Assembly: GCA_000092065.1 (NCBI GenBank)
Contig: CP000591.1
DNA from: Ostreococcus lucimarinus
Lineage: Eukaryota
Length of the DNA stretch: 64,000 nucleotides
Direction: 5' to 3' (one strand)
The position numbers were made by a program, and so were the translations under genes. Under the pieces are notes generated by a model that searched no databases, was not told the origin of the DNA, and was given only the letters and a program-made list of their open reading frames with translations. This document shows positions 7,355 to 28,997 of this stretch, piece after piece (positions within the stretch are counted from its first letter, which is position 1; the number at the start of each line of letters is the position of its first letter).

Positions 7355-7607
7355 GGCGACGACGCGCGTCGCGCGCCTCGACCCTCGCCCCGGCCCTCGC
7401 GCGCCGCCGGCGCGACGCGAACTCGCGCGCGCGGCGACGAATGCGTCGAGTTCGAGTCGCGCCGAATAAACGGACACACGGCGTATGGGCAAACAGTGAG
7501 ACACCGAGCGCGCCGTTGGTGTCCCGCACACGCGGGTGTGTCGCGCCGCGCCGCCCCGCGCGCGCCGCCGCGCGCCACCGCGCGGCGCGCGCGACTCGAC
7601 GCGCGCG

Positions 7608-10409
7608 ATGGCGCCCGCGCGGCGCGGAAGCTTCGACCGCGGCGATGCCGACGCGCGCGGACGCGAAACCGACAGCGACGACGGCGACGAGCGGCGACAT
7701 CACACGCTGACGCTCGCGCAGGGACGCGCGCTGCGGCGCGAGCTGAGCCGACACACGCTGCACGCGCTGGGCGGCGAGCGCGTGTGCGAGGAGAGCTCGC
7801 CGGAGACCACGCTTGGGTCCACGCAGGCGGAGGCGCTGGGACGCGCGTTCCTGGCGTCGACGGAAAGGGCGAACGATGGGGAGGCGACGGAGGCGGAACG
7901 GGCGGCGGCGCGCGTCGAGCTGGAAAACGTCGAACGCGAACGAAGGTCGACGGAAAGACGGTCGAGCAGACATTCGATCGACGCGCCGGCGCGAAAGGTG
8001 AAGTTTGATGCGGTGCCGGAGATGATTCCGAGGGTGGCGTCGGGCGACGACGTGAAAATGGTGAACGCGGCGAACGCGGGGACGGGGGCGACGACGCTGA
8101 GCGCGTCGACGGGGAAAGAACTCGCGGCGGAATTGAAGAAGACGCGATCGAAGATGGACGAAATAAAAGCCAGCGTGTCGAAGAAGTCGTCGTCGTATAA
8201 AGCGGCGGACGTCACGGGCGACGAAAACGTGCTCGAGGGGAAGGAGGAGAAGACGCGTCGCGCCATCAAAGCGATTCAACGACAGACGGACGCGCTGATG
8301 TTCCTCGCGGACGCCGTCGAGGCTAAAGACTTGCCTGGTCTCGCTGAGAGAATGCGCGAACGTCTGCGAACGATGAAAGAAAACTATCACGACATCACGT
8401 CTTACGAAGGTTTGCGTCAGCGTAAAAAAGGGGCGCTCAAGGCGGCAAAAAAGATGGATTTGTTGCGCGCCGCGTTCAACGTCGACGAGGCGCCGAAGGA
8501 CGCGTGCCCGATGCCGACACACAAGAGCGATAAGCCGCTGAAGAGAAAACGAGAGTATCGTATTTTGGGGACGAAAATGCTGTGCGCGGGTGTGTGTTTT
8601 CTCGTGCTTCTGATGATTCCGTTCTTAGTGACGCAGTACGAAGAACACGAGCACCACACCGGTTGCGATTCGATAAGCCAGGGTATGATTAAGCTCGACC
8701 ACGCGAGCTCGGGACAACTCGAAGTGAACTTGTTGGTTGGTCCGTGCACGTACAACGCGAGTGATTTTCATATGTCTTACAACATCTATCAATCGTACAA
8801 CCACCATACGTACCAATTGGGAGCGCTTGGCAAACCGTTGACGACGCCGCATTGGAGTGCGGCGTCCAGTGGGCATCGGCGTAAACTTCTCGGTGGTGGC
8901 GGCGCCGGTGTCAGCAAGCACGTCAAAGCAAGTTTTGAGACGTATATTTTGAGTGAATATCAATCCAAACACGGGAGCGTGTATATGAACTTTACCACAG
9001 ATTGTCCCACGCCAGTGGCGATCTCGCTCACTGCGACGGATACCGGCTTGGTGGGCATCGCCGGTATGTGGCTCGGTTTAGTTCTTCTCATCAGTATCTT
9101 CGGGTTGATCATTACTGAAATCATTCACCGCACCCTAGTTGCGTTCATTGGCGCCGCCGCTGTGCTGTTTATCCTGTCTTTACAACATCGCTTGCCATCG
9201 ATAGCGACGATTTTGACGTGGATGGATCACGGCACGCTCGCGCTGTTGTTCGGTATGATGATCATCGTCGCTCTACTTTCCCGCACTGGCGTGTTCGAGT
9301 ATATATCCGTACATATTGTCGAGTACTCAAAGGGTAGCATGTGGCGCTTGTTCTTCATGCTCATGATATTCGACGCAGTGTTGAGCGCGTTTTTGGACAA
9401 CGTCACCACAATGTTGCTCCTCGCACCCGTGGCGCTGTCTCTGTGCAAAGCTTTGAACATTGATCCGCGTCCACTTTTGATTCCGCTCTCCATTTTCGGT
9501 AACATTGGTGGATGTTCCACACTCATTGGTGATCCTCCGAACATTATCATCGGAAACGCGCTCAAGGAGCACATCGGTTTTGTCGACTTTTTACGAGTCC
9601 TCGGTCCGGGGGTCTTGCTCACGATGCCGTTTATTTTCGCTTTTGTCAAGTGGTACTACGGTGACGCATTGTTTGGTCAAAAGATCAACGTCGACATCGA
9701 CGAATTGCGCGCAAAGTATCCCATACGCGACATGAACTTGCTCATTCGCAGCGGAACGATTTTGATTTTTGTCATTTTGCTATTCTTTTTGCACCCCGTG
9801 ATGCACATGGAACCGGCGTACGTTGCGGTTTTCGGTGCGATCGCAATACTTCTCACAGGAAGCCACGATGAGTTTGAGTACGCGCTCGAAAAAGTTGAGT
9901 GGGACTCTTTGTTGTTTTTCGCGGGCTTGTTTGTGTTCACCGAGGGCATCGCTAAGCTCGGCTTGCTCAGAGCCATCGCCGATGAGCTCTCGACGCTCAT
10001 CGCCTCCTTCCCTATCGGGCAGCGTCAGATCGGCGCCATGTTGCTGGTGGAGCTCGTCGCTGGTATCGCGAGCGCATTCGTGGATAACATTCCATTCACC
10101 ACGACCATGCTTCCGGTCATCATACAAATGAGCGAAAACGTACAGGGCATCTCCATCGAAGCGCTCGCGTGGGCCCTCTGCTTCGGCGCCGACTTCGGCG
10201 GCATCGGAACTTTGATCGGCTCTTCCGCCAACATCGTGATGGCTGGTATTGCCGCCGAAGCTGGTTTTCCCATCACCTTCAAGTCCTTCTTCCGAATCGG
10301 CTGGCCCGTGATGTGCATCTCCTTGTGTATCGCCGGCGCCTACCTCGCCGCGCTTGAAGGCGCTGGGACTTTCAAAGTCAAAGACGACGACAGCGCGTCC
10401 TACAGCTGA
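7608..10409 (+). CDS. ArsB/NhaD-superfamily permease (P-protein/OCA2-like, CitMHS-like) with long N-terminal coiled-coil cytosolic extension
   Basis: About 12 TM segments with duplicated motifs FDAVLSAFLDNVTTMLLLAPVALSL and FVDNIPFTTTMLPVI, and GADFGGIGTLIGSSANIV, characteristic of P-protein/arsenite-pump-like transporters. ATG at 7608 (MAPARRG). Confidence 0.8.
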   Translation: MAPARRGSFDRGDADARGRETDSDDGDERRHHTLTLAQGRALRRELSRHTLHALGGERVCEESSPETTLGSTQAEALGRAFLASTERANDGEATEAERAAARVELENVERERRSTERRSSRHSIDAPARKVKFDAVPEMIPRVASGDDVKMVNAANAGTGATTLSASTGKELAAELKKTRSKMDEIKASVSKKSSSYKAADVTGDENVLEGKEEKTRRAIKAIQRQTDALMFLADAVEAKDLPGLAERMRERLRTMKENYHDITSYEGLRQRKKGALKAAKKMDLLRAAFNVDEAPKDACPMPTHKSDKPLKRKREYRILGTKMLCAGVCFLVLLMIPFLVTQYEEHEHHTGCDSISQGMIKLDHASSGQLEVNLLVGPCTYNASDFHMSYNIYQSYNHHTYQLGALGKPLTTPHWSAASSGHRRKLLGGGGAGVSKHVKASFETYILSEYQSKHGSVYMNFTTDCPTPVAISLTATDTGLVGIAGMWLGLVLLISIFGLIITEIIHRTLVAFIGAAAVLFILSLQHRLPSIATILTWMDHGTLALLFGMMIIVALLSRTGVFEYISVHIVEYSKGSMWRLFFMLMIFDAVLSAFLDNVTTMLLLAPVALSLCKALNIDPRPLLIPLSIFGNIGGCSTLIGDPPNIIIGNALKEHIGFVDFLRVLGPGVLLTMPFIFAFVKWYYGDALFGQKINVDIDELRAKYPIRDMNLLIRSGTILIFVILLFFLHPVMHMEPAYVAVFGAIAILLTGSHDEFEYALEKVEWDSLLFFAGLFVFTEGIAKLGLLRAIADELSTLIASFPIGQRQIGAMLLVELVAGIASAFVDNIPFTTTMLPVIIQMSENVQGISIEALAWALCFGADFGGIGTLIGSSANIVMAGIAAEAGFPITFKSFFRIGWPVMCISLCIAGAYLAALEGAGTFKVKDDDSASYS

Positions 10410-20512: not shown

Positions 20513-20578
20513 CGTCGCGCGTCGCGCGTCGCCGTCCGTCGCGCGTCGCCGTCCGTCGTTCGCTTTCGCTCGAATCGC

Positions 20579-20614
20579 GTCTCGGCCGTCTCGGCCGTCT
20601 CGGCCGTCTCGGAC
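20579..20614. repeat. 9-bp tandem repeat (GTCTCGGCC)x3 plus variant in the exonuclease/ViaA-like divergent intergenic region
   Basis: Visible. A similar (CGTCTCGGA)x3 lies at about 20772-20800 inside the ViaA-like 5' coding region. Confidence 0.7.
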
Positions 20615-20659: not shown

Positions 20660-22549
20660 ATGGCGCGCGTCGCGACGACGCCGCGCGCGATCGCGCGCGC
20701 GTCGTCCGTCGCGCGCGTCGATCGCGCGCGTCCGCGTCGGCGTCGGCGACGCGCGACGCGATCGCGCGCGCGCGTCTCGGACGTCTCGGACGTCTCGGAC
20801 GACGACGACGACGCCGTCGCGGCGCACGCGCTCGTCGAGCGGCGATCGCTGCTCGACAGCGACGACGCCGAGGCGGACGCGCGTCGGCGCGCGCTCGCCA
20901 ACGCGCGCGCGATCGCGGCGACGGCGGACGGCGGCGACGTCATGCGCGACGTCGACGCGGACGTCCTGCCGCTGTTGCTCCGGCTGCGAAGCGCGGGCGC
21001 CAGCGCGGAGGGGCTGCGACGAGGCGCGGCGGGCGTGCGGGCGTGGAGGGACGCCCTCGCGCGAGGGCTGCTGCCGGACGCGTCGCTCGAGTGGCCGGAG
21101 GACGAGACGTTCAGGACGGCGCTGATCGAGGCGCTGGGGGATTTAGACATGGCCAGGTTCACGCGACGGTTTCCGCCGGTGCTGGACACGTTGATGAAGA
21201 ATGTGTTGGATATTTTGTACGTGTACGAACGCGATCGAGAGGACGAAGACGCGACGCCGGAGTTGCCGCCGACGGAGCCGCGGGATTCGGAGACGGCGAA
21301 CGATGGAGAGGGAGAGGGAGACGCGCGAGGAAGCGGCGCGGGCGAGAGCGACGAAGAGGAGGGGGAGGGCGAGGCGCGGAGTCAGGCGGGAGGGCGAGGC
21401 GGCGCGGGGGAAGAAACCGACGGGAGCGATAACGTCGACGAATTCGACGTGGGGATGGATGGCGACGACGGCGCGAACGAGGCGATGGAGCGGGCGAAGG
21501 AGAAGAATAAGGAGATCGTCTCGCGGCTCATGGAGGAGTTCAAAGAGCAGTGGGAACCGGCGATGGATAAGCTCGACAAGGCGGCCAAGGCATTCGAAGG
21601 ATTAGATTTAGACGACCTCGCCGACGGCCCGGAAGGCTTCGACCTCACGCGAGGTCTGTGGCAGCAGACTGGGTGGAAGGAGCTCGATTCGCTTCGCAAA
21701 AAGCTGCAAGACTTGAAAGAGTTGCGCGACATGGTGCGCAGTTTGGGCCGAGGCAGTGGTCGCGGACCTTTGCGTCGCGCGCCGCGACAAAGAGAGCGCC
21801 AAGGATTCCCCATAGGTCTCGTGCGAAGTCCGATGGAGCCCGAACAAACATCCGGTTTGTGCCGCTCGGACGATTTGTCCCGCATGATGCCGAGCGAGAT
21901 GGTGCTACTCGCGTCGAGTCTCCCGCAAGCGCGTCTTTTGCACTTTGCGCGTCGCGCCGAGCGCACTTTGCTGTCGTATGAGCGCGTGGGGTGGTCGGAA
22001 GAACCCGCGGTGACTGTAGAGGGCTTCGAGACGCGCCCCGCGGCGGAGTGCGGGCCAATCATCGTGTGCCTGGACACCTCGGGGTCGATGATGGGCGCTC
22101 GCGAGACCGTCGCCAAAGCCATGGTTCTCGAGTGCATGCGGCAAAGTCGCTCGCAGCAGCGCGCGTGTTATTTATATTCTTTTAGTGGCCCAGGAGATTG
22201 CCAAGAGCTCGAGCTCAAGCTCAACGCCGCCGGTCTCTACGGTTTGTTGGAATTTCTCAGCGGTAGCTTCCACGGCGGCACCGACGTCGACGAGCCATTC
22301 AATCGCGCGCTCGCTCGGTTAAACGAGGCCGAATGGAGCAACGCTGATATATTGCTCGTCACCGACGGGGAAATCAAACCTCCCGACGAAACCTTGATCG
22401 CCAATCTCAACGAGGCAAAGGAAGAGATGGGATTAAAGGTGCACGGTTTGCTCGTCGGCGACGCCGGCAACGCCGAAGTCGTGGAATCGATTTGCACTCA
22501 CGTACACGCGTTCAAGTCCTGGACCGCGGTCGGCGGCAAGCCATCGTAA
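20660..22549 (+). CDS. ViaA-like VWA-domain protein (homolog of bacterial VWA protein that partners the RavA/MoxR AAA+ ATPase) with N-terminal R/A/S-rich presequence and acidic region
   Basis: C-terminal half aligns along its length with E. coli ViaA as recalled from memory: WQQTGWKELDSL.., DDLSRMMPSEMVLLASSLPQARLLHFARRAERTLLSYERVGW (ViaA SDDILRLLPPELATL..YRLHGESW), and GPIIVCLDTSGSMMG (MIDAS DxSGS) ...RACYLYSFS...FHGGTDVDEPF...ADILLVTDGE. ATG at 20660. Divergent from the exonuclease gene by about 150 bp. Confidence 0.75.
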   Translation: MARVATTPRAIARASSVARVDRARPRRRRRRATRSRARVSDVSDVSDDDDDAVAAHALVERRSLLDSDDAEADARRRALANARAIAATADGGDVMRDVDADVLPLLLRLRSAGASAEGLRRGAAGVRAWRDALARGLLPDASLEWPEDETFRTALIEALGDLDMARFTRRFPPVLDTLMKNVLDILYVYERDREDEDATPELPPTEPRDSETANDGEGEGDARGSGAGESDEEEGEGEARSQAGGRGGAGEETDGSDNVDEFDVGMDGDDGANEAMERAKEKNKEIVSRLMEEFKEQWEPAMDKLDKAAKAFEGLDLDDLADGPEGFDLTRGLWQQTGWKELDSLRKKLQDLKELRDMVRSLGRGSGRGPLRRAPRQRERQGFPIGLVRSPMEPEQTSGLCRSDDLSRMMPSEMVLLASSLPQARLLHFARRAERTLLSYERVGWSEEPAVTVEGFETRPAAECGPIIVCLDTSGSMMGARETVAKAMVLECMRQSRSQQRACYLYSFSGPGDCQELELKLNAAGLYGLLEFLSGSFHGGTDVDEPFNRALARLNEAEWSNADILLVTDGEIKPPDETLIANLNEAKEEMGLKVHGLLVGDAGNAEVVESICTHVHAFKSWTAVGGKPS

Positions 22550-26356: not shown

Positions 26357-27844
26357 ATGGCGCTCTTTCACGAAGTCGTGCACGCGCTCAAGACGTCGCC
26401 GGCGCACTTCACCGTCCCCGCTGTGCTAATGACGGTGGTTATTTTCATCTTCTTGCTCGATCAGCTCTCGCACGGACCGCTGAAGGGACGAAAGTCGCCG
26501 CCGGTGATCGACGTGGCGCCGGTGTGGGGCGGCATGTTGGCCTTTTTGGCGGGACCGATGAAACTCATGCGCGAGGCGACGCCGAAGTACGGTGAGGTGT
26601 TTACCGTGCCGGTGTTTCACAAGCGGATCACGTTTCTGATCGGGCCCAAGGTGAGCGAGTTTTTTTTCAAGGCGAAGGATACGGAGATGTCGCAAAAGGA
26701 GGTGTACGAGTTCAACGTGCCGACGTTCGGTAAGGGCGTGGTGTTCGATGTAGATCACACGACTCGTGCGGAACAGTTTAGATTTTTCGCGGATAGTCTC
26801 AAGAGTAACCGATTGAGGATGTACGTGGGGATGATGGTGAAGGAGGCGGAGGATTTCTTCAGCAAGTGGGGAGACGCAGGCGAGGTGGATTTGCTCGAGC
26901 AACTCTCGGAGTTGATCGTACTCACGGCTTCCAGATGCTTGCTCGGAAGAGAGATTCGCGAGACGCTCTACTCTGAAGTTACCGATCTGGTGCACGATTT
27001 GGATAAGGGTATGGTGCCGTTGTCGGTATTTTTCCCGTACGCGCCGATCGAGGCGCACCGCAAGCGAGACGCGGCGCGCAAAAACTTGGCCAAGATTTTC
27101 GACAAAGTTATCCAAGCTCGTCGCGAGAGCGGCGCGAGTGAACCGGATGTCTTACAAACGTTCATCGACGCCCGGTACAAGGATGGTAGCAGGCTCACGA
27201 ACGACCAAGTCCTCGGTATGTTGATTGCCGTGCTCTTCGCCGGTCAACACACGTCCTCGATCACGTCCACGTGGACTGGTTTGCTGGCCATCGCGAACAA
27301 GGAGCGCGTGATGCCTGCGCTCGAAAAGGAGCAAAAGGATATCATGAAGAAGCACGGCAAGGATTTGGATTTCGACATCTTAGCGAAAATGGATGAGTTG
27401 CATTTTGCTGTGAAGGAGGCGCTTCGAATGCACCCGCCTCTCATCATGCTCCTTCGCATGGCGCAAGTGCCGTTCGAGGTCGAAACCTCTACGGGTAAGA
27501 AGTACACCGTCCCCAAGGGCCACATCGTCGCCACCTCTCCCGCGTTCTCGCACCGCTTGGACAATGTCTACAGCGACCCGAACGAGTACAAGCCTGAACG
27601 ATTCCGCGAACCGAACCCCGAAGACAAGGCCCAGTTCGCCTCCTTCATCGGTTTCGGCGGCGGACGTCACGGTTGCATGGGGGAAACCTTTGCGTACATG
27701 CAAATCAAAACCATTTGGTCCATCCTTTTGCGAAACTTTGAGTTCGAAATGGTTGGAAAAGTTCCCGAACCCGATTACACCGGCATGGTCGTCGGTCCCA
27801 CCGCGGGCCAATGCAAAATCCGCTACAAGCGCCGCGTTCTGTGA
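26357..27844 (+). CDS. CYP51: Sterol 14-alpha demethylase CYP51 (cytochrome P450)
   Basis: N-terminal membrane anchor, P450 motifs AGQHTSS, EALRMHPP, heme-binding FGGGRHGCMGETFAYMQIKTIWSILLRNFEFEM typical of CYP51. ATG at 26357. Confidence 0.9.
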   Translation: MALFHEVVHALKTSPAHFTVPAVLMTVVIFIFLLDQLSHGPLKGRKSPPVIDVAPVWGGMLAFLAGPMKLMREATPKYGEVFTVPVFHKRITFLIGPKVSEFFFKAKDTEMSQKEVYEFNVPTFGKGVVFDVDHTTRAEQFRFFADSLKSNRLRMYVGMMVKEAEDFFSKWGDAGEVDLLEQLSELIVLTASRCLLGREIRETLYSEVTDLVHDLDKGMVPLSVFFPYAPIEAHRKRDAARKNLAKIFDKVIQARRESGASEPDVLQTFIDARYKDGSRLTNDQVLGMLIAVLFAGQHTSSITSTWTGLLAIANKERVMPALEKEQKDIMKKHGKDLDFDILAKMDELHFAVKEALRMHPPLIMLLRMAQVPFEVETSTGKKYTVPKGHIVATSPAFSHRLDNVYSDPNEYKPERFREPNPEDKAQFASFIGFGGGRHGCMGETFAYMQIKTIWSILLRNFEFEMVGKVPEPDYTGMVVGPTAGQCKIRYKRRVL

Positions 27845-28010
27845 GCGCGCGTCCATGAACCTTAGCGTGTTGCACAATGTCGATATCTATAATCTATTTC
27901 CATTTCACACGCGCGCCAGCGCGCGCGTCGCACCGTTTCGCGCGTTCGCGGCGCATCGTTCGCCTCGCCGACGTCATCGCCGCACTTCGCGCAGCGCGGC
28001 CACCGTTCAC

Positions 28011-28997
28011 ATGCGTCGCGCCGCCCGACTCGCGCGCGACGCCCTCGCGCGCGCGCGCGCGTCGAGCGCGTCGTTCGCCGAGACCTCGACGAGCGCCAGC
28101 GCGTTCGCACCGCGCGCGCGCGTCCCGAACGCGCTCGAAACCTCGCGCGATCGCTCTCTCGCGCGCGGTTTCACCGGCGCCTGGCGCGCGTTCCACGCCT
28201 CGGCGTCGATCGAGAAGCGAAACAAACGCCAGACCGTGCCGTTGACGCTGGAAGACATGGAGTTCGAGCGCGTGGAGGCGGTGGAGGACGCGAGACGGCG
28301 GTTGGCGCCGACGGAGGGGACGCTCTACGGCGTCGCGCCGAAAACGTGGACGGAACGCGAGCGCGACACCTTGAACGCCGACGAAGAAGCGAAATTGGAC
28401 GCGCTGTTGTCGACGTACGTCGAAGGCGCGTACGTCGAGGGATCGGGGATGCCGACGTTCGAGGAAGTGTTGGCGGGCGCGGAGGCGAGCGCGGCGAACG
28501 ACGACGACGACGACGACTTCGCGCGAGACTCGAGCGAGGGCGAGGACGAGGACGGGGACGAGCGAGGCGGTGATCACGAATCCATGGTTCGAGTTCCCAT
28601 TCGTGACGTCGCGGGAAGGAGTTACGGCACCGGGAAGCGTAAAACAGCCGTCGCGCGCGTGTGGCTCGCCCCGGGCTCGGGCGAACACAAGGTCAACGGC
28701 AAGCCCTACGACGAGTACTTCTCCTCTCCCGCCGCGCGTGCGGACATGATCGCGCCGTTTTTCGTGAGCGATACGTTAGGTTTATTCACCGCCGTCGTCG
28801 ACGTCAGGGGCGGTGGGATCTCCGGCCAGGCGCAGGCGGTTCGTCACGGCGTCTCCGTCGCGCTGCAAAACTACGACCCGGCGTTTCGACCGGCGTTGAA
28901 AGCCGCGGGGTACCTGAAGCGCGATCCGCGCATCGTCGAGCGCAAGAAACCGGGCAAGGCCAAGGCGCGCAAATCGTTCGCCTGGGTCAAGCGTTAG
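28011..28997 (+). CDS. Mitochondrial-type ribosomal protein uS9 (S9) with Arg/Ala-rich presequence and acidic spacer
   Basis: C-terminal about 130 aa is a complete uS9 domain (GTGKRKTAVARVWL..G.G.I.VNG...Y...DTLG...GGGISGQAQAVRHGVSVAL...LKAAGYLKRDPRIVERKKPGKAKARKSFAWVKR). Start chosen at ATG 28011 (MRRAARLARDAL...). An earlier ATG at 27855 is only 11 bp from the CYP51 stop. Confidence 0.75.
   Translation: MRRAARLARDALARARASSASFAETSTSASAFAPRARVPNALETSRDRSLARGFTGAWRAFHASASIEKRNKRQTVPLTLEDMEFERVEAVEDARRRLAPTEGTLYGVAPKTWTERERDTLNADEEAKLDALLSTYVEGAYVEGSGMPTFEEVLAGAEASAANDDDDDDFARDSSEGEDEDGDERGGDHESMVRVPIRDVAGRSYGTGKRKTAVARVWLAPGSGEHKVNGKPYDEYFSSPAARADMIAPFFVSDTLGLFTAVVDVRGGGISGQAQAVRHGVSVALQNYDPAFRPALKAAGYLKRDPRIVERKKPGKAKARKSFAWVKR

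What the first reader, a model, noticed from the sequence alone, without database searches (positions are those of the whole stretch)
20660..22549. Eukaryotic, presequence-bearing homolog of bacterial ViaA (VWA partner of the RavA MoxR-type AAA+ ATPase)
What the sequence shows. The C-terminal about 330 aa are collinear with E. coli ViaA as I recall it, including the helical middle region (DDLSRMMPSEMVLLASSL...YERVGW versus SDDILRLLPPELATL...YRLHGESW) and the VWA/MIDAS block (PIIVCLDTSGSMMG...FHGGTDVDEPF...ILLVTDGE).

Established knowledge. ViaA is known from proteobacteria, where it is co-operonic with ravA and acts on respiratory complexes.

Inference. Here the protein sits in a eukaryotic gene context, with the genome's normal codon usage and an N-terminal R/A/S-rich extension that looks like an organelle-targeting peptide. 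This suggests a nuclear-encoded, probably organelle-targeted RavA-ViaA-type chaperone module (an old endosymbiotic or horizontal acquisition). No RavA-like AAA+ gene is adjacent, so the partner, if any, is elsewhere.
Basis: partly seen in the sequence, partly recalled or inferred. Interest (0 to 1): 0.6.

Follow-up and report, generated by a model that had tools for sequence, protein, structure and literature searches.

The report
Algal ViaA-type VWA adaptor gene
This Ostreococcus nuclear gene encodes an organelle-targeted relative of the bacterial ViaA protein, and its RavA-like ATPase partner is encoded elsewhere in the same genome, so a bacterial chaperone pair not described so far in eukaryotes exists in algae and probably works in the plastid.

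Summary
Window 20660-22549 (+) is one intron-less 629-aa ORF of Ostreococcus lucimarinus. Its C-terminal ~330 aa match only ViaA among curated families (NCBIfam NF008230, E=3e-41; BLASTP to E. coli ViaA, E=3e-28; hhalign, E=2e-40). The MIDAS motif is complete.

The score is below the ViaA equivalog cut-off. The closest relatives are 500-560-aa bacterial ViaA-like proteins that align over the full length and sit directly downstream of LARA-less RavA-like AAA+ genes.

O. lucimarinus encodes a RavA-like MoxR ATPase (XP_001419855.1) at another locus. The two genes are 1.7 kb apart in Picocystis. They are fused into one protein in dinoflagellates and in other algae with secondary plastids.

Eukaryotic sequences form one clade (NJ bootstrap 96/100). 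No cyanobacterium is among the best bacterial relatives.

Ten homologues in one algal sub-clade carry a signal peptide followed by F/W/Y, the pattern of plastid leaders. This points to the plastid, not the mitochondrion, but localisation is inferred.

The client protein is unknown. I found no paper describing the system in eukaryotes.

Verdict: a real, native gene and a new eukaryotic member of a known MoxR-VWA kind. Interest is moderate.

The parts
20660..22549 (+). Complete intron-less CDS (629 aa plus stop) of the ViaA-like VWA protein
   Evidence: ORF and translation. Gene callers on 12 independent metagenome contigs call the same 629-aa product. It is 100% identical to O. lucimarinus CCE9901 'predicted protein' P0085, whose 535-aa model starts at M95.
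20660..20773 (+). aa 1-38: Arg/Ala/Ser-rich presequence (putative organelle transit peptide)
   Evidence: 15 R+K, 9 A, 6 S+T and 1 acidic residue in 38 aa. The segment is absent from bacterial homologues. Micromonas-type relatives have compositionally similar but non-conserved leaders (P0109).
20774..20941 (+). aa 39-94: acidic, Mamiellales-specific N-extension (VSD repeats, poly-D, then the conserved LVERRSLLDSDDAEADARRRALANA block)
   Evidence: The segment upstream of M95 is conserved in P0088, P0090, P0099 and P0109. This shows that the annotated M95 start is too far downstream. The 9-bp repeat CGTCTCGGA x3.2 lies at 20773-20801 and GAC x5.3 at 20798-20813.
20942..21259 (+). aa 95-200: N-terminal helical domain shared with bacterial long ViaA-like proteins (LP..L...G.L..R..G...WR.AL..G.LP....WP......L..L...RF)
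   Evidence: Alignment A1 has near-invariant P104, L133, G136, P139, W145 and P146. AF2 pLDDT is 87-98. There is no significant match to E. coli ViaA residues 1-158 (hhalign E=0.23).
21260..21529 (+). aa 201-290: acidic, Gly/Glu/Asp-rich low-complexity linker, predicted disordered
   Evidence: 29 D+E in 90 aa. AF2 pLDDT is below 50 for model residues 116-176, which are aa 206-266. The segment is poorly aligned and variable in homologues.
21530..22024 (+). aa 291-455: helical/beta middle region collinear with ViaA residues 154-320, including the family motif RSDDLSRMMPSE (aa 402-413)
   Evidence: hhalign of aa 293-619 against ViaA 154-470, E=2e-40. BLASTP. Invariant or near-invariant G363, R364, R402, S403, R408, M409, L410, P411, E413, E434, L437 and Y440.
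22025..22546 (+). aa 456-629: VWA domain with a complete MIDAS (D472-x-S474-x-S476, T541, D569)
20578..20612 (.). Perfect 9-bp tandem repeat CGTCTCGGC x3.9 in the ~130-bp divergent intergenic/5' region shared with the exonuclease gene
   Evidence: Tandem Repeats Finder; sequence.

Best explanation
The gene encodes a nuclear-encoded, organelle-targeted member of the bacterial ViaA-like family. These proteins are the VWA/MIDAS partners of RavA-type MoxR AAA+ ATPases.

Proposed mechanism, inferred by analogy with RavA-ViaA, NorQ-NorD, CbbQ-CbbO and midasin:
1. After import and removal of the ~40-aa presequence, the helical N-terminal and middle regions dock onto a hexamer of the separately encoded RavA-like ATPase (O. 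lucimarinus XP_001419855.1).
2. The C-terminal VWA domain uses its complete MIDAS metal site to grip an acidic residue of a client protein.
3. ATP hydrolysis then remodels or matures that client, probably a metallo-protein or membrane-associated complex.

The compartment is most likely the plastid. The client is unknown.

Shown: the homology, the existence of the partner, fusion or linkage of the two genes in other algae, the N-terminal extension, and the single eukaryotic clade.
Inferred: import, physical interaction, ATPase coupling and plastid location.
For: 1. ViaA-specific homology: NF008230 E=3e-41, BLASTP E=3e-28, hhalign E=2e-40.

2. Full-length collinearity (aa ~100-626, 33-38% identity) with 500-560-aa bacterial proteins. 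These lie directly downstream of a bpMoxR/AAA_5/AAA_lid_8 ATPase. In 28 of 30 cleanly called bacterial loci the distance is -198 to +50 nt on the same strand.

3. The partner is in the same organism. P0511 (O. lucimarinus CCE9901) scores E=1e-71 on NCBIfam RavA. It has Walker A (GPPGTAKS) and Walker B (VDE) motifs and an Arg/Ala-rich leader. It sits in a eukaryotic locus whose gene order is conserved across Ostreococcus and Micromonas.

4. Fusion evidence: seven 1181-1488-aa eukaryotic homologues are ViaA-like + (Clp_N) + RavA-like fusions, including one from the dinoflagellate Polarella glacialis. One contig carries a single 1272-aa fusion ORF.

5. Linkage evidence: the two genes are 1.7 kb apart in Picocystis and tandem on L107.

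6. Single eukaryotic clade: 62 sequences, none of the 18 named bacteria inside, NJ bootstrap 96/100.

7. Plastid indication: ten homologues in one sub-clade have a signal peptide followed by F/W/Y. This is the ASAFAP-type bipartite plastid leader (PMC4329603). All named eukaryotic hits are algae: chlorophytes, Prasinoderma and dinoflagellates.

8. A Chlamydomonas 'moxR ATPase' (Cre13.g603225) is listed among chloroplast-ribosome interactors (PMC8894945). Its orthology to the RavA-like gene was not verified.

9. The AF2 model is confident (pLDDT 84, pTM 0.74) and has a canonical VWA fold.
Against: - The score is far below the ViaA equivalog cut-off (142 against 500 bits).
- The N-terminal domain has no detectable similarity to the RavA-binding N-terminus of E. 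coli ViaA. Binding to the RavA-like partner is therefore an extrapolation.
- No targeting predictor could be run. Green-algal plastid and mitochondrial presequences look alike.
- The sequences with signal-peptide-plus-F leaders carry no organism names.
- The two genes are unlinked in Ostreococcus, and no expression or interaction data were examined.
- In E. coli the reported clients are respiratory complexes. That would point to mitochondria.
Confidence: 0.7

Rival explanations
1. The same RavA-like/ViaA-like pair is imported into mitochondria. There it acts on respiratory complexes (complex I, or complex II/fumarate reductase), as reported for E. coli RavA-ViaA.
For: E. coli RavA-ViaA is reported to interact with Nuo (complex I) and fumarate reductase (summarised in PMC9489729, PMC10743472 and PMC7159879). 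The Arg-rich, acid-free 38-aa leader is also compatible with a mitochondrial presequence.
Against: - Ten homologues from one algal sub-clade carry a signal peptide plus an aromatic residue. That pattern directs proteins to complex plastids, not mitochondria (PMC4329603).
- All named eukaryotic carriers are photosynthetic lineages.
- From my own knowledge, dinoflagellates lack complex I yet keep the fused system.
- The protein lacks ViaA's basic C-terminal lipid-binding helix.
Confidence: 0.2
2. It is a stand-alone VWA/MIDAS adhesion or scaffold protein. It has lost its functional coupling to any AAA+ ATPase, so the ViaA similarity is only ancestry.
For: The two genes are unlinked in Ostreococcus. 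The N-terminal domain does not match the RavA-binding part of E. coli ViaA.
Against: - Both genes are retained in O. lucimarinus. RavA-like genes are named in O. tauri, Micromonas, Bathycoccus and many other chlorophytes.
- The genes are adjacent in Picocystis and fused in other algae.
- The N-terminal domain is conserved with bacterial proteins that are co-operonic with RavA-like genes.
Confidence: 0.06
3. It is bacterial contamination, or a very recent strain-specific horizontal transfer with no integrated function.
For: All close non-algal relatives are bacterial.
Against: - Eukaryotic genes flank it on both sides on one contig.
- Codon usage is native.
- The identical locus was recovered from many independent marine metagenomes.
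- Orthologues at 63-85% identity occur across Mamiellales.
- The eukaryotic clade is monophyletic.
- It carries a eukaryote-type leader.
Confidence: 0.01

Closest known systems
E. coli ViaA (b3745), partner of the MoxR AAA+ ATPase RavA
   Same: - C-terminal VWA domain with a complete MIDAS.
- The preceding ~170-aa region with the SDD(I/L)xR(L/M)(L/M)PxE motif is collinear.
- It is paired with a RavA-type ATPase (AAA_5 + AAA_lid_8).
   Different: - Only 29% identity and 142 bits against the 500-bit equivalog cut-off.
- The N-terminal ~100-aa domain is unrelated or undetectably related to ViaA residues 1-158.
- It has an acidic disordered linker and a presequence.
- It lacks the basic C-terminal amphipathic tail (...RSRLLRRWRR) that tethers ViaA to anionic lipids (PMC9489729).
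- The partner lacks the LARA and RavA_C domains.
- The genes are not co-operonic.
Uncharacterised bacterial 'long' ViaA-like proteins, co-operonic with LARA-less RavA-like ATPases (for example in Candidatus Parabeggiatoa, Thiomargarita, Lujinxingia, Myxococcales, Planctomycetota, Rhodocyclaceae, Vibrio)
   Same: Full-length collinearity at 28-45% identity, covering the N-terminal WRxALLxGxLP...WP domain, the middle region and the VWA/MIDAS domain. The partner ATPase has the same domain set.
   Different: The bacterial proteins have no N-terminal extension: the WRxAL motif sits at residues ~38-52, against 85-155 in eukaryotes. They have no long acidic linker. Bacterial gene order is ravA then viaA with overlapping or abutting ORFs. 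In eukaryotes the genes are unlinked, or tandem or fused in the order ViaA then RavA.
Other MoxR-VWA pairs: NorQ-NorD, CbbQ-CbbO, CoxD-CoxE, the Mg-chelatase subunits ChlI-ChlD, and the eukaryotic fused forms midasin/Rea1 and VWA8
   Different: No family-specific sequence signal. NCBIfam returns only ViaA. The Pfam CoxE-type VWA model is not significant for the window protein. Midasin, VWA8 and ChlD carry their AAA+ modules in the same chain with different architectures.

Membership tests
ViaA sensu stricto (NCBIfam NF008230 equivalog; enterobacterial RavA stimulator) | Whole-protein score at or above the curated equivalog cut-off (500 bits) | tested here: not met
   142.2 bits, E=3e-41. Only profile positions 180-473 of 487 are matched.
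ViaA sensu stricto (NCBIfam NF008230 equivalog; enterobacterial RavA stimulator) | C-terminal VWA domain with a complete MIDAS motif (DxSxS...T...D) | tested here: met
ViaA sensu stricto (NCBIfam NF008230 equivalog; enterobacterial RavA stimulator) | Second half of the N-terminal domain of ViaA (residues ~154-320) collinear with the query, including the SDDxxRxxPxE motif | tested here: met
   BLASTP of aa 327-620 against ViaA 184-471, E=3e-28. hhalign against ViaA 154-470, E=2e-40.
ViaA sensu stricto (NCBIfam NF008230 equivalog; enterobacterial RavA stimulator) | First ~150 residues of ViaA's N-terminal domain (part of the RavA-binding region) | tested here: not met
   hhalign of the 22-sequence profile against E. 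coli ViaA 1-158 gives E=0.23 and probability 0.3%.
ViaA sensu stricto (NCBIfam NF008230 equivalog; enterobacterial RavA stimulator) | Basic amphipathic C-terminal helix that binds anionic lipids (PMC9489729) | tested here: not met
   E. coli ViaA ends ...FDTGMRSRLLRRWRR. The window protein ends ...FKSWTAVGGKPS directly after the VWA domain.
ViaA sensu stricto (NCBIfam NF008230 equivalog; enterobacterial RavA stimulator) | Encoded in one operon with ravA | tested here: not met
   No AAA+ gene was found among the 20 large window ORFs scanned. The RavA-like gene of O. lucimarinus is at a different locus. Operons are not expected in a eukaryotic nucleus.
ViaA sensu stricto (NCBIfam NF008230 equivalog; enterobacterial RavA stimulator) | Binds RavA and stimulates its ATPase activity | not testable with these tools
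   Needs biochemistry or a multimer structure prediction.
Broad RavA-like / ViaA-like MoxR-VWA pair (bacterial, LARA-less) | Full-length collinearity with the 500-560-aa bacterial ViaA-like proteins, including their N-terminal domain | tested here: met
   Single HMMER stretches cover query aa ~100-626. Alignment A1 has conserved N-domain columns. tblastn matches query residues 98-626 in Lujinxingia, Parabeggiatoa and Myxococcales.
Broad RavA-like / ViaA-like MoxR-VWA pair (bacterial, LARA-less) | A cognate RavA-subfamily AAA+ ATPase (AAA_5 + AAA_lid_8, matching the RavA model over the AAA+ module) in the same genome | tested here: met
   P0511 = XP_001419855.1 of O. lucimarinus CCE9901: bpMoxR 1e-60, AAA_5 1e-25, AAA_lid_8 6e-23, NCBIfam RavA 1e-71.
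Broad RavA-like / ViaA-like MoxR-VWA pair (bacterial, LARA-less) | Genomic or physical coupling of the two components somewhere in the clade | tested here: met
   Bacterial operons. Picocystis neighbours. Fusion proteins in dinoflagellates and other algae.
Nuclear-encoded plastid-targeted protein | Cleavable N-terminal targeting sequence and experimental or predicted plastid location | tested here: inconclusive
   A leader is present. Ten homologues have an ASAFAP-like signal peptide plus F/W/Y (PMC4329603). No predictor or localisation data exist for the Ostreococcus protein. The orthology of the Chlamydomonas chloroplast-ribosome-associated 'moxR ATPase' is unverified.
Generic eukaryotic VWA proteins (VWA8, copine, RPN10, midasin) | Best sequence matches to these families | tested here: not met

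The most novel reading that the evidence does not exclude
Green algae, dinoflagellates and other secondary-plastid algae share a previously undescribed plastid-resident RavA/ViaA-type MoxR-VWA chaperone machine. It would have been acquired once from a non-cyanobacterial bacterium and spread with plastids or by gene transfer between algae. It would act on a plastid client such as the plastid translation apparatus or a photosynthetic or redox metallo-complex. That would make it an additional AAA+/VWA system of plastids alongside Mg-chelatase.
Probability: 0.4. Interest if true: 0.65.

Novelty: new member of a known kind. Interest (0 to 1): 0.45.

Why it matters
From my own knowledge, MoxR-family AAA+ ATPases and their VWA partners are treated as prokaryotic chaperone systems. 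The RavA-ViaA pair in particular has been studied only in enterobacteria and Vibrio. The papers I could read describe it only in bacteria.

A conserved, organelle-targeted RavA-like/ViaA-like pair exists across chlorophytes, and it is fused into one polypeptide in dinoflagellates and other algae. This gives:
- an independent gene-fusion argument that the two proteins work together;
- tractable eukaryotic models (Ostreococcus tauri, Chlamydomonas, diatoms) in which to look for clients of a system whose function is still debated in E. coli;
- a candidate new plastid protein-maturation factor.

It also corrects a truncated public gene model.

Tried and rejected
- PDB sequence search with the whole protein: no hit at E<=1.
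- Foldseek against afdb50 would have tested similarity to the AlphaFold model of E. coli ViaA. It was not installed.
- hhalign of the N-terminal domain against E. coli ViaA 1-158: not significant.
- Search for a conserved third gene next to 80 bacterial loci: only the ravA-viaA pair recurs. The other large clusters are antisense shadow ORFs of GC-rich genomes, and real neighbours recur in 5 loci or fewer.
- Orthology of Chlamydomonas Cre13.g603225 ('moxR ATPase'): the id is absent from the held supplements and appears in no other paper.
- The first candidates for the Ostreococcus RavA-like gene (P0326, P0428) came from contigs of higher GC, which I read as Micromonas-type. The O. lucimarinus protein was found only through cluster membership.
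- No tRNA genes in the window.
- Cyanobacterial origin considered: no cyanobacterium is among the best 80 bacterial loci.
- Rubisco-activase-like role (CbbQ-CbbO analogy) considered and set aside. The family signal is RavA/ViaA, not CbbQ/CbbO. From my own knowledge, chlorophytes already have canonical Rubisco activase.
Full report
**What is there**

Window 20660-22549 (+) is a single uninterrupted ORF of 629 codons, and ATG 20660 is the first ATG in its frame. The window is Ostreococcus lucimarinus nuclear DNA. The protein is 100% identical to 'predicted protein [Ostreococcus lucimarinus CCE9901]' (P0085). The same 629-aa product is called on many independent marine metagenome contigs with the same neighbours.

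The neighbours are typical eukaryotic genes: an SDG2-type SET protein, a 3'-5' exonuclease, a WD40 protein, a P450, DNA polymerase alpha subunit B and an adaptin. The gene's GC3 (0.78) and codon usage (r=0.89 against the other window genes) are native.

The public 535-aa model starts at M95. Sequence upstream of M95 is conserved in other Mamiellales (P0088, P0090, P0099, P0109), so the real start is ATG 20660 and the public model lacks the leader.

**Is it ViaA-like?**

Yes, specifically.
- Among 18,950 NCBIfam models the only significant hit is ViaA (NF008230, E=3e-41, aa 318-618 against profile 180-473/487). The next family is at E=0.14.
- BLASTP against E. coli K-12 ViaA gives 29% identity over 300 aa, E=3e-28.
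- A 22-sequence profile aligns with ViaA residues 154-470 at E=2e-40.
- Pfam alone sees only a generic VWA_2 domain.
- The MIDAS residues D472, S474, S476, T541 and D569 are present and invariant in homologues.

**Where membership stops**

- The score (142 bits) is far below the equivalog cut-off of 500.
- The first 158 residues of E. coli ViaA show no significant similarity to the algal N-terminal domain (E=0.23).
- The basic C-terminal tail that anchors E. coli ViaA to anionic lipids (PMC9489729) is missing.

An exhaustive HMMER search of 1.84 billion cluster representatives found 4077 relatives, 355 of them at E<=1e-30. The best non-algal ones are 500-560-aa proteins that align over query residues ~100-626.

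Two of these were inspected in their contigs. Both lie immediately downstream of a ~500-aa AAA+ gene with bpMoxR/AAA_5/AAA_lid_8 domains, with overlapping ORFs.

A scan of GTDB species genomes placed the closest bacterial relatives in Candidatus Parabeggiatoa, Thiomargarita, Lujinxingia, Myxococcales, Planctomycetota, Pedosphaera, Rhodocyclaceae, Vibrio and Endozoicomonas.

In 28 of 30 cleanly called loci the RavA-like gene abuts the ViaA-like gene on the same strand, and no third gene is conserved.

E. coli RavA has the same AAA+ domain set plus the LARA and RavA_C domains. The ATPase next to the bacterial relative P0158 and the O. lucimarinus RavA-like protein both lack those two domains.

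So the window protein belongs to a broad RavA-like/ViaA-like family, of which enterobacterial RavA-ViaA is a specialised branch.

**The partner**

Seven eukaryotic homologues of 1181-1488 aa turned out to be fusions: ViaA-like at the N-terminus, sometimes a Clp_N domain, then a RavA-like AAA+ module. One of them is from the dinoflagellate Polarella glacialis.

I used the AAA+ part of one fusion as a query. It found stand-alone RavA-like proteins in dinoflagellates and many chlorophytes. Cluster look-ups and a second search then named Micromonas pusilla, Bathycoccus prasinos, O. tauri ('MoxR-like ATPase') and O. lucimarinus CCE9901 itself (P0511 = ABO98148.1 / XP_001419855.1, 547 aa).

P0511 scores E=1e-71 on the RavA model over the AAA+ module. 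It has intact Walker A and Walker B motifs and its own Arg/Ala-rich leader. Its locus is eukaryotic and keeps the same neighbours (a syntaxin-6-type SNARE and a 2OG-Fe(II) oxygenase) across Ostreococcus and Micromonas.

Linkage in other algae:
- In Picocystis the two genes are 1.7 kb apart.
- On contig L107 they are tandem and probably spliced into one gene.
- On L108 they form one 1272-aa ORF.

The order in eukaryotes is ViaA then RavA, the reverse of the bacterial operon.

**Evolution**

I built a neighbour-joining tree of 156 sequences. All eukaryote-type sequences (62) fall in one clade: Mamiellales, Picocystis, Polarella and all fusion proteins in the tree. None of the 18 taxon-named bacterial sequences lies inside it. 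Bootstrap support on a 64-taxon subset is 96/100.

Caveats: the distances are crude, the method is NJ only, and most sequences were labelled from N-terminal features and not from taxon names.

**Structure**

AlphaFold2 with a 96-sequence alignment gave a confident model of aa 91-629 (pLDDT 84.2, pTM 0.74). It shows:
- a helical N-domain;
- a disordered acidic linker (aa ~206-266);
- a helical/beta middle region;
- a canonical VWA domain.

**Which compartment?**

Bacterial homologues start ~40 residues before the conserved WRxALLxG motif. Eukaryotic ones carry 50-110 extra residues. In Ostreococcus the first 38 residues are Arg/Ala/Ser-rich with one acidic residue. That composition fits a plastid or a mitochondrial leader.

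Ten homologues in one algal sub-clade start with a hydrophobic signal peptide followed directly by F, W or Y (P0170, P0174, P0175, P0185, P0187, P0217, P0237, P0251, P0254, P0262). This is the ASAFAP-type bipartite leader of proteins imported into complex red-lineage plastids (PMC4329603). All named eukaryotic carriers are algae.

A Chlamydomonas 'moxR ATPase' is listed among chloroplast-ribosome-associated proteins (PMC8894945). I could not verify that it is the orthologue.

I therefore favour the plastid (about 0.55) over the mitochondrion (about 0.2). This step is inferred.

**Mechanism**

By analogy with characterised MoxR-VWA pairs (PMC5437159, PMC7159879, PMC9489729), the mature protein should act as an adaptor. 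Its N-terminal and middle regions would bind the RavA-like hexamer, and its MIDAS site would bind an acidic residue of a client that is then remodelled at the expense of ATP. The client is unknown, and no conserved neighbour gives a hint.

**Novelty and verdict**

Both Ostreococcus proteins are in public databases, but only as 'predicted protein' or 'MoxR-like ATPase'. I found no paper describing a eukaryotic RavA-ViaA-type system.

It is a new eukaryotic member of a known kind of system. Its interest is moderate: it gives fusion evidence for the pair's coupling, a likely new plastid factor, and a corrected gene model.

Noticed in passing
window 20578-20612 and 20773-20813: There are perfect 9-bp tandem repeats. 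CGTCTCGGC x3.9 lies just upstream of the start codon. CGTCTCGGA x3.2 lies inside the CDS and encodes VSDVSDVSD, followed by GAC x5.3 (poly-Asp). Near-identical metagenomic variants of the protein are 624-629 aa long. Two N-terminal fragments, P0129 and P0134, differ from the window protein exactly in this repeat stretch. The microsatellite is therefore a likely source of the length differences at the end of the presequence.
   Followed up: partly
window 20660-20941: The public O. lucimarinus CCE9901 gene model (P0085, 535 aa) starts at M95. It omits the presequence and a block that is conserved in other Mamiellales, so the annotation is N-terminally truncated.
   Followed up: yes
L105 10001-15077 (Picocystis-type contig): The ViaA-like gene (+) and the RavA-like gene (-) are convergent and only 1.7 kb apart, with one 370-aa gene between them. 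The surrounding context is eukaryotic (SPX-EXS, NPL, a Clp protease).
   Followed up: partly
L107 4001-7556; L108 4001-7819: In algae whose leaders have a signal peptide plus F, the ViaA-like and RavA-like parts are tandem or fused in the order ViaA then RavA. This is the reverse of the bacterial operon. On L107 the RavA frame is open 350 nt upstream of its called start, and the ViaA C-terminus is not conserved. This suggests an unrecognised intron joining the two parts.
   Followed up: partly
P0141 aa 830-879, P0145 aa 723-771; stand-alone RavA-like proteins P0294-P0307: Some fusion proteins (P0141, P0145) carry a Clp_N (Clp repeat) domain in front of the AAA+ module. So do many stand-alone RavA-like proteins, among them those named from the dinoflagellates Effrenium voratum and Durusdinium trenchii. 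The chlorophyte and bacterial versions examined lack this domain. It could be an extra substrate- or adaptor-binding domain.
   Followed up: no
window 7536-10409 (+): The CitMHS/ArsB-type transporter ORF lies in the lowest-GC stretch of the window (0.53). It has the least typical codon usage of the genes compared (r=0.57, against 0.79-0.92 for the others). About 500 residues precede the transporter domain in the ORF as listed.
   Followed up: no
window 27564-28997 (+): The ribosomal protein S9 domain occupies only the last 121 of 477 ORF residues. Either the start is over-called or this is an organellar S9 with a long N-terminal extension.
   Followed up: no
L011 8001-9953: One Ostreococcus-type RavA-like gene call (P0349, 650 aa) runs ~90 residues past the conserved C-terminus (...PLGV) into what looks like a separate small protein. 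This is probably a missing stop or a frameshift in that long-read assembly.
   Followed up: no
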